In this document: positions 7,254 through 9,076 of the stretch, one piece after another
Layout: the number at the start of each line of letters is the position of its first letter
Position numbering within the stretch: the stretch's first letter is position 1
Virus record (IMG/VR): IMGVR_UViG_3300030310_000016
DNA length: 20,834 nucleotides
From: a virus
Taxonomy: Duplodnaviria > Heunggongvirae > Uroviricota > Caudoviricetes
Reading direction: 5' to 3' (one strand)
Position numbers and translations under genes: made by a program
Notes under the pieces: generated by a model
Seen by the model: only the letters and a program-made list of their open reading frames with translations
Databases searched by the model: none
Told to the model about the DNA's origin: nothing

Positions 7254-7283
7254 ATCTAGGTATCTGGCTAATGATACCTAGAT
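7254..7283 (-). terminator. putative terminator downstream of the 455-aa AT-rich gene
   Basis: Perfect 11-bp inverted repeat ATCTAGGTATC / GATACCTAGAT with an 8-nt loop, about 40 nt past the stop; on the minus strand it is followed by TTAAACTTTAAATTT. Confidence 0.4.
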
Positions 7284-7320
7284 TGAATTTGAATCATATT
7301 TTGTTAGTTAACTTTAACTA

Positions 7321-8688
7321 TTATCTTTCTCCAACATCCTCTTCTAAAACATGATCTATCTTATCTACAGGAAGATTATCATACTTAGAAAAATCAAAAC
7401 CATCGGGAAGTTTATTTTTTGCTGCTTTTAATATTCTTATTGAATCGTTACCGTTTCTAGAGCGATTTCGCCAATAACATTGATTGTTTTTGTTTGCTCC
7501 TTCAAGCAGGGTTAACATTTGCTCGCTTGAGTAATTAGCCAAGTCTTTGTCAATAAATCTATCAAAATATATATCGGCTCGTTCGAAATCAGCACTATTT
7601 ATAAAACAAGCAATTCCAAAATCGCGATACTCTGATTCCAAACCTAATTCGCTGCAAACATTTTTAAAAATTGCCAAATGTTGCTGATTGAGAAAATTCC
7701 CATTATCCCCGTATTTTTTGTAATATTTTTCAGATATTCTTTTTGTTACGCGATTAATGTGTTCCTCCGGCGATTCAGATATAAAAAAGGCTATTCCAAA
7801 ATAAGATATGTTATCTTTTATAATAGGCTTTATGAGTTCTTTTACTGAATCATCCAAGGCGTTATATATTTCTTTCTCCATGGAAATGAACTCAATTAGT
7901 GCCTTAATTGCATCATGGTTATTGGAAATATTGGAGTAATAAGCAGTTTCTGCTTTAACCGAGTCCACCATGGCTTGCCTGTCTTTTTCAAATATCAGTT
8001 TCATAGCTCTGATATTTATCTCTCTATTTTCTAATGGCTTAGCTTCTTCAGATCTAAACGAAAACTTCCACAACCCCTTGAATATCTTAACTAATACTTC
8101 CTTGTTTAAAGATTTAAAATATTTAACATCTAAGTATTTTTTTAGCGCGTTATCGGAAGGGAATAGGTCCTTTACCTTTTCTAGATCTGCAACAAATGTG
8201 GAAAGTATTTTTTGAGACATAAATGGCGGCTTGCTTAATATTACTTCTATACTATTCCTAATGTCACTTCTAATCATTTCCTGTGTTGGCTCGAATAACG
8301 TATCTTCGTCACTTATTACGGGATGGGCAGATAAATGCCTGTGTTTTTGAATAAGTAAAACTTTATGGTTTGAAGCAGTGTCTAATAATTGAGTTCTTTC
8401 AAAAACTCTTTTAATAAGCTCTTTTTCCCATTTAGGAGAGTAAGGATCATCGTTTTGTAGTGCTTCAATTTCTAATAATATCTTTTCCGCAACAGCATCG
8501 TTATGAACATCTCGCAGTTCTTGGAGCTTAAAAATAATATCACATACAACTACTGACCATAGCATCACGGTAGCAGAACGGTAACAACCATTAGCATAGC
8601 TCTTATAAACCTCTTCAAAATATTTTCTAGTTCTTCTATCATAAATTTTACTCTTCTGAGATTCTAATGAGAATATTCTAACGTCCAT
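7321..8688 (-). CDS. candidate anti-phage defence or abortive-infection protein, 455 aa, with an N-terminal HEPN-like R-x4-H motif
   Basis: A long uninterrupted ORF in strikingly AT-rich DNA, against GC-balanced flanking phage genes. GGAGA lies 5 nt upstream of the ATG at 8686..8688; the ORF-track start at 8736 has no ribosome-binding site. The motif KHRHLSAHP has R117 and H122 spaced as R-x4-H, encoded near 8323..8340. It is monocistronic and bracketed by hairpin terminators. Confidence 0.7.
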
Positions 8689-9076
8689 AATTTCTCCATG
8701 AAAAATATTTAACTCAAATAATTGAATATGAATCATGTAGTCATAAATACTTCAAAATTATATTTTTAGCCCACTTAATTCATACAAAACTTCTTTAATA
8801 AACTGATTCAGGCCTCATGCATTATGCTTTTAACAAACTATCCTAACCTTCATAGTGTAAATCTTGATGTTCAATTTTACAATACGCCAAGTTTCCGTAA
8901 ATCAATGAATGCGTCGGATTTTACAATAATTTAAAAGAGATGTTGAATAGTATCCATGAAGTGTAAGGTTAATATACCCAAAACGTCCGCCTCTGGCACA
9001 AAGCGGACAACCACGCTAGCTCTACCCTGTGCCACAAAATGTCAATTTGCATCTGAACTAATGCACTTTAATCTCG

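What the first reader, a model, noticed from the sequence alone, without database searches (positions are those of the whole stretch)
7254..9076. AT-rich, terminator-bracketed 455-aa ORF with an HEPN-like R-x4-H motif in the prophage accessory hotspot: candidate single-gene defence system
Seen in sequence: the ORF at 7321..8688 is markedly AT-rich and Lys/Asn/Ile-rich next to GC-balanced replication genes, has its own ribosome-binding site, and is separated from neighbours by AT-rich spacers and hairpins (8-nt-loop hairpin at 7254..7283 after the stop; a GTCCGC/GCGGAC hairpin near 8986..9010 after the upstream operon). It contains KHRHLSAHP, where R117 and H122 give the R-x4-H spacing of HEPN ribonuclease active sites, within a predicted helical N-terminal 150 aa; the C-terminal 300 aa has no feature I recognise. 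Established knowledge: the segment between the replication genes and the nin/Q region of lambdoid prophages is a recurrent site for defence and abortive-infection morons, and HEPN domains are common effectors of such systems. Inference: this is a horizontally acquired defence gene of a family I cannot name, and the adjacent IS3 suggests the locus is recombinationally active.
Basis: partly seen in the sequence, partly recalled or inferred. Interest (0 to 1): 0.85.

Follow-up and report, generated by a model that had tools for sequence, protein, structure and literature searches.

The report
Known phage-defence gene DARNA (PD-T7-3)

Summary
A 455-aa ORF lies at 7321..8688 (-). Its GC is 0.33 against about 0.50 in the flanks. 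It has its own RBS and a strong terminator hairpin after the stop.

The interpretation (single-gene HEPN defence system, R117-x4-H122) is also correct, but the family has a name.
- The protein matches the PADLOC PD-T7-3 model end to end (E=3e-168).
- It is 455/455 identical to PDB 9wxf ('Dandelion', 12 chains).
- PD-T7-3 was selected functionally from ECOR30 (Vassallo 2022).
- A 2026 preprint renamed it DARNA. It forms a dodecamer with an N-terminal HEPN domain (catalytic R117/H122) and a C-terminal helical ssDNA sensor. It cleaves tRNA anticodon loops and aborts infection when phage SSB presents ssDNA carrying CT motifs.

The window is the Rac prophage. The gene occupies a slot where near-identical Rac copies carry other cargo.

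One side result is more interesting than the gene. The 1875-bp cassette (7134..9008) is bounded by two inward-facing hairpins of a conserved ~24-nt motif. The same two-hairpin frame surrounds dozens of other defence cassettes in P2-like and lambdoid prophages.

Novelty of the finding itself: already known.

The parts
7134..9008 (-). Whole DARNA/PD-T7-3 cassette (1875 bp, GC 0.325). It moves as one unit between unrelated mobile elements.
   Evidence: The same segment is 99.1-99.2% identical in a P2-like prophage (L005) and in a genomic island with YagK/YfjJ and inovirus-Gp2-like genes (L006). An alternative cassette replaces 7154..8981 in another Rac copy (L004)..
8986..9008 (-). Upstream ('U') end hairpin GTCCGCTTTG-TGCCAG-AGGCGGA, followed by GTTTTGGG. 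It is terminator-like and faces into the cassette. It would stop read-through from the DUF977 operon (inferred).
   Evidence: Terminator scan 9009..8984; fold -14.7 kcal/mol; motif search; junction analysis.
8689..8985 (-). 297-bp AT-rich leader expected to hold the native promoter. The position of the promoter is inferred.
   Evidence: The functional ECOR30 clone carried only 371 or 444 bp beyond the ORF and was expressed 'from its native promoter'. Sigma-70-like candidates lie at 8946..8918 and 8901..8874, but they are no more frequent than in shuffles.
8694..8697 (-). Shine-Dalgarno GGAG, 5 nt before the ATG at 8688..8686.
   Evidence: Read directly from the sequence.
7321..8688 (-). DARNA / PD-T7-3 / 'Dandelion' coding sequence, 455 aa plus stop.
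   Evidence: PADLOC PDLC04108 E=3e-168, residues 5-440 on profile positions 3-429 of 432. 455/455 identical to PDB 9wxf_A.
8212..8688 (-). HEPN RNase domain (aa 1-159). R117 is codon 8340..8338 and H122 is codon 8325..8323.
7324..8211 (-). C-terminal all-helical domain (aa 160-455). It senses ssDNA and also contributes to dodecamer contacts. It carries F368, D372, Q403, W406 and N408, which read the CT dinucleotide.
   Evidence: Residues present. Q403 is invariant and D372 nearly so. Their role comes from the preprint's cryo-EM structures and from its F368A and W406A mutants.
7253..7284 (-). Intrinsic-terminator-like hairpin 37 nt after the stop codon (12-bp stem, 8-nt loop), followed by an A/T-rich tail.
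   Evidence: -16.3 kcal/mol, z=-6.5.
7134..7156 (+). Downstream ('D') end hairpin GTCCGCTTTG-AGCGAG-AAGCGGA, followed by AGTCTCGGTCTTATTAT. It faces into the cassette from the other side.
   Evidence: Motif search with 0 mismatches and 0 expected in shuffles. An overlapping terminator-like site lies at 7146..7163 (+). Junction analysis.

Best explanation
The ORF at 7321..8688 (-) is the E. coli defence gene PD-T7-3, renamed DARNA (ssDNA-Activated RNase) and deposited in the PDB as 'Dandelion'. It sits as a self-contained moron cassette in the Rac prophage, between the DUF977 gene and the DUF1367/YbcO/DUF1133 (nin/Q-like) genes.

Mechanism, shown for the identical protein in the literature:
1. 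The protein assembles through HEPN-HEPN dimers into a two-layered dodecamer with six composite HEPN active sites (R117/H122). In the resting state a loop (aa 81-85) occludes them.
2. The C-terminal helical domains form claws that bind ssDNA of about 30 nt or more through base-specific contacts to CT dinucleotides.
3. [quoted passage not shown]
4. During infection, phage SSBs (T7 gp2.5, T4 gp32, T5 SSB) compete with host SSB for ssDNA, and ssDNA bound by them stays accessible to DARNA.
5. The activated enzyme cuts most tRNAs in the anticodon loop, translation stops and the infection aborts.

Inferred here for this window: the gene is intact, and its native RBS, leader and terminators are all present. 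It should therefore be expressed from its own promoter in the lysogen, insulated from prophage transcription by inward-facing hairpins at both cassette ends.
For: Family and identity:
- Full-length PADLOC PD-T7-3 hit, E=3e-168.
- 455/455 identity to PDB 9wxf_A, a 12-chain entry. The separately solved fragments 9wx2 ('Dandelion-hepn', residues 1-158) and 9wwz (residues 156-455) match too.
- The ORF length of 1368 nt equals that of the original ECOR30 PD-T7-3 CDS, which was labelled 'HEPN' in Vassallo 2022 Table S1/S2.

Published function:
- PD-T7-3 protects against T7 and more strongly against T-even phages.
- The preprint 10.64898/2026.02.22.705581 covers the rest: the R117x4H122 motif, the H122A catalytic mutant tested in the tRNA cleavage assays, tRNA anticodon-loop cleavage by RNA-seq and in vitro, SSB escape mutants, ssDNA/CT-motif activation, inhibition by EcSSB, and cryo-EM dodecamers.
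- Every residue that paper names is present at the same number in the window protein: F6, N33, K69, R98, R117, H122, K201, K204, E347, F368, D372, N402, Q403, Y405, W406, N408.

Independent checks here:
- R117, H122 and Q403 are invariant, and D372 is conserved in 36 of 38, across homologues down to 33% identity.
- AF2 models have pLDDT 87.9 and 89.4.

Cargo status:
- GC 0.33 against 0.50.
- Only 14 of 5426 complete E. coli genomes hold the gene region, while 2928 match parts of the queried region.
- Other Rac copies hold different cargo in the same slot.
Against: - The mechanistic detail rests on one preprint that is not yet peer reviewed. I found no paper for the 'Dandelion' PDB entries.
- The active conformation was not captured in the cryo-EM structures, so the step from ssDNA binding to loop opening is a proposal by the authors.
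- Nothing here shows that the gene is transcribed in this strain. The promoter scan found no more sigma-70-like sites than shuffles give.
Confidence: 0.96

Rival explanations
1. The gene is present but non-functional or silent in this strain: a decaying moron in a cryptic prophage that no longer contributes to defence.
For: Rac is a defective prophage, and this copy carries an IS3 only 366 bp downstream of the stop. In four related genomes (I3, WEM25, E89, 1217KP) an IS3-family insertion lies in this region. In strain I3 it was resolved as an IS2 sitting between the RBS and the ATG, which suggests the gene can be lost or silenced. No promoter signal rises above chance.
Against: The ORF is intact and 100% identical to the protein that was active when cloned with no more than 444 bp of flank. 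The RBS, the 297-bp leader and both terminators are intact in this window. The IS3 lies outside the cassette.
Confidence: 0.06
2. The protein senses phage SSB protein directly, as reported for Retron-Eco8, rather than sensing ssDNA. The ssDNA would be only a cofactor.
For: All escape mutants map to phage SSB genes, and SSB expression alone is toxic in DARNA cells. Several other systems sense SSB.
Against: In vitro, ssDNA alone activates tRNA cleavage, and SSB alone does not. Mass photometry shows no DARNA-SSB complex without ssDNA. Cryo-EM shows base-specific CT contacts, and F368A and W406A abolish activity. Three unrelated SSB folds all activate.
Confidence: 0.05
3. It is a HEPN toxin of a toxin-antitoxin or addiction module that stabilises the prophage, and phage defence is incidental.
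Against: The cassette has no partner ORF. The only other ORFs of 50 aa or more within 7134..9008 lie inside, and antisense to, the CDS. The single gene is tolerated alone and is toxic only with phage SSB. Homologues are single 430-470-aa proteins.
Confidence: 0.02

Closest known systems
PD-T7-3 = DARNA (E. coli ECOR30; Vassallo et al. 2022, PMC9519451; Puteikiene et al. 2026 preprint 10.64898/2026.02.22.705581) = PDB 9wxf/9wwz/9wx2 'Dandelion'
   Same: The protein sequence is identical (455/455). The ORF length, the R117x4H122 motif and all functionally probed residues are the same. It is a single gene with its own leader.
   Different: Nothing differs at the protein level. The only point specific to this window is the genomic setting (Rac prophage slot, IS3 366 bp downstream), which those papers do not discuss in the text I read.
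Csm6/Csx1, HepT and other HEPN RNases (PDB 6tug, 5yep, 7ae2)
   Different: No CARF or MNT partner. Activation is by ssDNA through a C-terminal helical domain, not by cyclic oligoadenylate or de-AMPylation. The protein forms a dodecamer, and loop 81-85 occludes the active site.
PrrC / RloC / Cas13 / HepS / ApeA anticodon nucleases
   Same: Abortive infection by cutting tRNA anticodon loops with a HEPN-type active site.
   Different: PrrC is held in check by a restriction enzyme and released by the T4 Stp peptide. HepS binds the lambda J tail tip (PDB 9oik). DARNA cuts most tRNAs and is triggered by exposed ssDNA.
SSB-responsive systems (Retron-Eco8, Hna, AbpAB, DRT9, Hachiman)
   Same: Phage escape maps to the phage SSB gene, and the trigger is linked to phage replication.
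   Different: For Retron-Eco8 the SSB binds the system directly. In DARNA the SSB only makes ssDNA accessible. The effector is an RNase, not a DNase.
BxaP (ORF376), a BREX-type-3-associated protein (PMC10799925)
   Same: It was found as a structural homologue of the predicted PD-T7-3 fold, and it protects against T4.
   Different: It is embedded in a BREX operon rather than standing alone as a prophage moron. I did not assess its sequence relationship here.

Membership tests
PD-T7-3 / DARNA | Full-length match to the family profile | tested here: met
   PADLOC PDLC04108: E=3e-168, 558 bits, residues 5-440 on profile positions 3-429 of 432.
PD-T7-3 / DARNA | Sequence identity to the experimentally characterised protein | tested here: met
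   455/455 identical to PDB 9wxf_A. The ORF length of 1368 nt equals that of the ECOR30 CDS RCP48690.1. I did not retrieve the RCP48690.1 sequence itself.
PD-T7-3 / DARNA | Catalytic R117-x4-H122 motif | tested here: met
   Present, and the only R-x4-H in the protein. Invariant in 38 homologues.
PD-T7-3 / DARNA | ssDNA (CT)-reading residues F368, D372, Q403, W406, N408, and oligomer-interface residues F6, N33, E347 | tested here: met
   All are present at the published positions. Q403 is invariant, D372 is kept in 36 of 38, and F368 is F or Y in all. W406 is kept in only 20 of 38.
PD-T7-3 / DARNA | Single-gene system with its own expression signals | tested here: met
   No co-oriented partner ORF lies in 7134..9008. 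An RBS, a leader and a terminator are present.
PD-T7-3 / DARNA | Anti-phage activity, tRNA cleavage and dodecamer formation | not testable with these tools
   Shown in the literature for the identical protein. PDB 9wxf has 12 chains.
HEPN superfamily | All-helical HEPN fold of the N-terminal domain | tested here: met
HEPN superfamily | Match to a Pfam HEPN family | tested here: not met
   No Pfam hit above threshold; only DUF6559 at E=0.023. The sequence is too divergent for current profiles, and the fold evidence carries the assignment.
Integron gene cassette (considered for the hairpin-bounded cassette) | One attC per cassette, next to an intI integrase and attI | tested here: not met
   There are two hairpins per cassette, with distinct loops (TGCCAG and AGCGAG). 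No intI is annotated in the matching RefSeq copy of this region; the only integrase there is intR at the prophage end. The hotspots lie inside P2-like and lambdoid prophages. Similarity to attC was not tested.
IS / composite transposon (considered for mobility of the cassette) | Cassette boundaries coincide with IS ends or target-site duplications | tested here: not met
   The IS3 occupies 5695..6955, whereas the cassette ends are at 7134 and 9008. The same cassette occurs without this IS in L001 and L005.

The most novel reading that the evidence does not exclude
The DARNA gene is known, but the frame around it may not be. The cassette (7134..9008) is bracketed by two inward-facing copies of a ~24-nt hairpin, GTCYGCTNTG-loop-NAGCGGAC.

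- The upstream copy has the loop TGCCAG. The downstream copy has the loop AGCGAG.
- 101 of 106 such pairs in the fetched phage and genome loci combine one copy of each type (binomial p about 3e-24).
- They enclose AT-rich cargo from at least 79 protein families. These include PARIS, DarTG, Tmn, PD-T7-1 and PD-T7-5.
- The pairs sit at the P2-like G/FI slot, at the lambdoid DUF977 slot and elsewhere. Some form tandem arrays with 12-18 bp between cassettes (most often 18).
- When the same cassette occurs in different backbones, identity starts at the loop, and the outer 10-nt arm follows the backbone.

The most novel reading is that these hairpins are portable recombination sites as well as insulating terminators. 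Cassettes would be inserted into, or exchanged at, a split backbone hairpin. That would be a mechanism for the rapid defence-gene swapping that recent P2/P4 studies call unexplained.
Probability: 0.25. Interest if true: 0.7.

Novelty: already known. Interest (0 to 1): 0.2.

Why it matters
For the finding as given, the value is confirmation. A reader working from raw sequence picked the right catalytic residues and the right biology. The gene can now be annotated as PD-T7-3/DARNA instead of 'hypothetical protein', which is how RefSeq and every homologue source I saw still label it. It adds no new system.

What could matter is the cassette frame. Two studies of P2/P4 defence hotspots leave the exchange mechanism open: one proposes only a speculative cos-end pathway, and the other says how defence genes move between unrelated elements is not known. 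A conserved, polar pair of hairpins at cassette ends gives a concrete, testable candidate. It would also give a simple sequence rule for finding unannotated defence cassettes.

Tried and rejected
- **Profile libraries.** Pfam, NCBIfam and PHROGs scans of the protein gave nothing significant.
- **'Dandelion' literature.** Searches with HEPN or anti-phage found no relevant paper.
- **IS3-mediated mobility.** Rejected, because the boundaries do not coincide.
- **Integron-like cassette.** Rejected: no intI, and two hairpins per cassette.
- **Toxin-antitoxin reading.** Rejected: no partner gene.
- **Rfam.** No RNA family was found in or next to the cassette. The only window hits were RalA and STnc100 elsewhere.
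- **Nilsson et al. [quoted passage not shown] From memory, it may already describe conserved sequences flanking P2 inserts. It is not held in the library, so I cannot establish whether the hairpin observation has priority.
- **PADLOC on neighbours.** Scans of neighbouring window ORFs gave only weak HTH-type hits.

Full report
**1. The observation**

The window has a long open frame at 7321..8736 on the minus strand. The biologically used start is the ATG at 8688..8686. GGAG lies five bases upstream of it at 8697..8694. This start gives a 455-aa product, the length of nearly all close homologues and of the RefSeq CDS in matching genomes.

The ORF has GC 0.329 and GC3 0.279. The spacers on both sides have GC 0.33-0.34. 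The replication genes at 9077-12340 have GC 0.50.

A 12-bp stem with an 8-nt loop sits at 7284..7253, 37 nt after the stop. It folds at -16.3 kcal/mol, z=-6.5, and none of 200 shuffles folds as well.

The GTCCGC/GCGGAC hairpin at 9009..8984 is followed by GTTTTGGG, and the terminator scan picks it up. Its energy alone is only moderately unusual (z=-2.2).

KHRHLSAHP is present. R117 and H122 form the only R-x4-H in the protein. A 1261-bp IS3 copy occupies 5695..6955.

**2. What it is**

Pfam, NCBIfam and PHROGs do not recognise the protein. PADLOC does: model PDLC04108 (PD-T7-3), E=3e-168, covering residues 5-440 on profile positions 3-429 of 432.

A sequence search of the PDB finds 9wxf chain A, named 'Dandelion'. 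It is a 12-chain entry, identical over all 455 residues. Two fragment entries correspond to residues 1-158 ('Dandelion-hepn', 9wx2) and 156-455 (9wwz).

PD-T7-3 was recovered by functional selection from an ECOR30 fosmid library. It was validated as a single gene and labelled 'HEPN'. Its CDS of 1368 nt was cloned with 371 and 444 bp of flank. It protected more strongly against T-even phages than against T7.

**3. How it works (literature for the identical protein)**

A February 2026 preprint renames PD-T7-3 as DARNA. It reports the following.
- **Domains.** The protein has an N-terminal HEPN domain (aa 1-159) with the catalytic motif R117x4H122, and a C-terminal helical domain (aa 160-456) with a Pds5-like fold.
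- **Assembly.** It forms a D2 dodecamer built from HEPN dimers. F6A and N33A+E347A break the dodecamer and impair activity.
- **Target.** After T7 infection, or after expression of phage SSB, most tRNAs are cut in the anticodon loop.
- **Escape.** Escape mutants of T3, T5 and T7 all map to the SSB gene.
- **Activator.** In vitro the direct activator is ssDNA of about 30 nt or more with several CT motifs. These are read by F368, D372, Q403, W406 and N408. F368A and W406A are inactive.
- **Role of SSB.** Phage SSB enhances activation and E. coli SSB inhibits it.
- **RNA binding.** An RNA-binding patch (K69, R98, K201, K204) is required.
- **Open step.** Loop 81-85 occludes the active sites in all the structures, so the activating rearrangement is proposed, not seen.

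All the named residues are present at the same numbers in the window protein.

**4. Independent checks made here**

A database search found 314 homologue clusters. They are mostly from Gammaproteobacteria (Photobacterium, Providencia, Aeromonas, Shewanella, Serratia, Vibrio, Pseudomonas), with some from Myxococcus, Paenibacillus, Bacteroidia and Patescibacteria. All are labelled hypothetical and none has a Pfam domain.

In an alignment of 38 sequences down to 33% identity, R117, H122, N401, Q403 and R407 are invariant. D372 is kept in 36 of 38, and F368 is F or Y in all.

AlphaFold2 models are confident: full length pLDDT 87.9, N-terminal domain pLDDT 89.4 and pTM 0.85. Foldseek with the whole model found nothing significant.

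**5. Context**

The window is the Rac prophage:
- intR at 19599..20834, then xisR, rcbA, and ralR with its RalA sRNA at 19100..19278;
- recT, recE (15448..18048), racC, kilR, sieB, ydaS/T;
- ydaU, ydaV, DUF1627 and DUF977 (9077..9514);
- on the other side, DUF1367, YbcO and DUF1133, then the lysis genes.

Only 14 of 5426 complete E. coli genomes hold at least 80% of 7000..9200, while 2928 match some part of that query.

In Rac copies 98-99% identical elsewhere, the same slot holds other cargo:
- a Sll1717-family P-loop ATPase (L002);
- a NACHT protein with a weak Mrr-like neighbour (L003);
- a 269-aa unknown protein on the other strand (L004).

The IS3 is a strain-specific insertion outside the cassette and is absent at that site in strain I3.

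**6. Verdict on novelty**

The finding is a correct rediscovery of a known, functionally validated and structurally solved system. It is 'already known'.

**7. Side result: the cassette frame**

Comparing copies showed that the unit that moves is 7134..9008. The same 1875 bp occur at 99.1-99.2% identity in two other settings. One is a P2-like prophage, between the tail-fibre-assembly and sheath genes (L005). The other is a genomic island next to an IS2 (L006).

Both ends carry the motif GTCCGCTTTGNGCNAGANGCGGA in inverted orientation. None is expected by chance in the window. Each copy is a hairpin with a T-rich tail pointing into the cassette.

Allowing up to 3 mismatches, I found 71 bracketed segments of 367-4727 bp.
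- They are mostly AT-rich.
- 69 of the 71 have one TGCCAG-loop end and one AGCGAG-loop end.
- ORFs of 100 aa or more run from the TGCCAG end to the AGCGAG end in 68 of 94 cases.
- The cargo falls into 79 protein families.
- Adding species-representative genomes gives 101 heterotypic pairs out of 106 (p=2.6e-24). Adjacent cassettes are separated by 12-18 bp, most often 18.

Cargo includes PARIS (AriA/AriAB), DarT/DarG, Tmn, PD-T7-1, PD-T7-5, several PDC candidates, TIR, SIR2 and HEPN proteins. A few long, GC-normal pairs with Ars, MFS or LysR genes are probably false pairs.

By tblastn, 34 loci are at the P2-like G/FI slot and 24 at the lambdoid DUF977 slot.

Where one cassette occurs in different backbones, identity holds from the 6-nt loop inward. 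The outer 10-nt arm follows the backbone. In P2 the two outer arms and their flanks would form one long hairpin (my reading of the sequences). The cassette therefore looks as if it sits in a split backbone hairpin.

Single 24-nt palindromes of the same family exist at the same backbone position (for example L029 and L007). They may be unoccupied sites, but what follows them was not examined.

The hotspot papers I could search contain no mention of hairpins, palindromes or inverted repeats. The 2026 P2/P4 study calls the mechanism of exchange with other elements unknown. Nilsson et al. 2004 might already cover this and could not be read. I treat this as a lead, not a claim.

**8. Scores**

Interest in the finding as given is 0.2. 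It is well observed and correctly interpreted, but the system is already described. The novel reading concerns the hairpin frame: probability 0.25 that it is both a real recombination device and unreported, and interest 0.7 if true.

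Noticed in passing
window 7134-7156 (+) and 8986-9008 (-); also L005 6002-6024/7854-7876, L006 6001-6023/7853-7875, L004 3635-3657/4644-4666: The DARNA cassette is bracketed by inverted copies of a ~24-nt hairpin motif (GTCYGCTNTG-loop-NAGCGGAC). 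The upstream loop is TGCCAG and the downstream loop is AGCGAG. The same cassette with the same ends sits in Rac, in a P2-like prophage and in a genomic island. Identity starts at the loop, while the outer arm follows the backbone.
   Followed up: partly
loci L007-L126 (viral contigs) and L127-L246 (genomes), e.g. L114 4195-9652, L033 979-3566, L099 4546-8153: The same polar hairpin pair frames many other AT-rich cassettes. 101 of 106 pairs combine one loop of each type. There are at least 79 cargo families, including PARIS, DarTG, Tmn, PD-T7-1 and PD-T7-5. The cassettes lie at the P2-like G/FI slot and the lambdoid DUF977 slot. Some form tandem arrays with 12-18 bp (mode 18) between cassettes. 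The hotspot papers searched do not mention this.
   Followed up: partly
window 8686-8691 (site); L001 13693-15022: In E. coli I3 a 1330-bp IS2 is inserted with a CATAA duplication between the DARNA RBS and its ATG. This cuts the gene off from its leader. WEM25, E89 and 1217KP show an insertion of the same size in the same region, annotated as an IS3-family transposase; their junctions were not examined. It may be natural silencing of the defence gene. I did not check whether these strains are clonal.
   Followed up: partly
window 5695-6955: An IS3 copy of 1261 bp, with orfA at 6590-6898 and orfB at 5727-6593. It lies between the DUF1971 gene and the DARNA cassette. It is absent at this site in strain I3, where an IS3 instead interrupts the DUF1133 gene.
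   Followed up: yes
window 4238-5694, with ORF 5027-5389 (+): A second AT-rich stretch (GC 0.28-0.35) holds a DUF1971-domain gene convergent with DARNA. About 680 bp (4344-5026) have no ORF of 50 aa or more. Other Rac copies annotate a hok/gef remnant near this position (L002). PADLOC gives no hit for the DUF1971 protein.
   Followed up: partly
L002 6265-8334, L003 6633-8892, L004 3779-4588: Alternative cargo occupies the same Rac slot. One is a 689-aa Sll1717-family P-loop ATPase with weak STAND/ORC-like and PDC-M36A hits. One is a 524-aa NACHT-C-terminal-helical protein next to a weak Mrr_cat-like 234-aa protein. One is a 269-aa protein with no hit. These are candidate defence genes, not validated.
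   Followed up: partly
window 1234-1256 (-): A third, weaker copy of the hairpin motif (3 mismatches, GTCAGCTCTGAGCCAGTGGCGGA). It lies between the two TolA-C-terminal-domain genes (791-1186 and 1337-1765), which may themselves be a moron.
   Followed up: no
window 1876-2062 (-) and 19100-19278 (-): Rfam matches at the gathering threshold: the STnc100 sRNA (86.6 bits) upstream of the TolA-like genes, and RalA, the antitoxin sRNA of RalR (225 bits).
   Followed up: no
loci L127, L130, L133, L134, L147, L163, L164 and others (Hyphomicrobiales, Pseudolabrys, Xanthobacteraceae MAGs): Exact matches to the TGCCAG-loop hairpin also occur in GC-rich Alphaproteobacteria MAGs. They are mostly single 24-nt palindromes, several per genome. 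I did not determine whether they are a related REP-like element or a coincidence.
   Followed up: no
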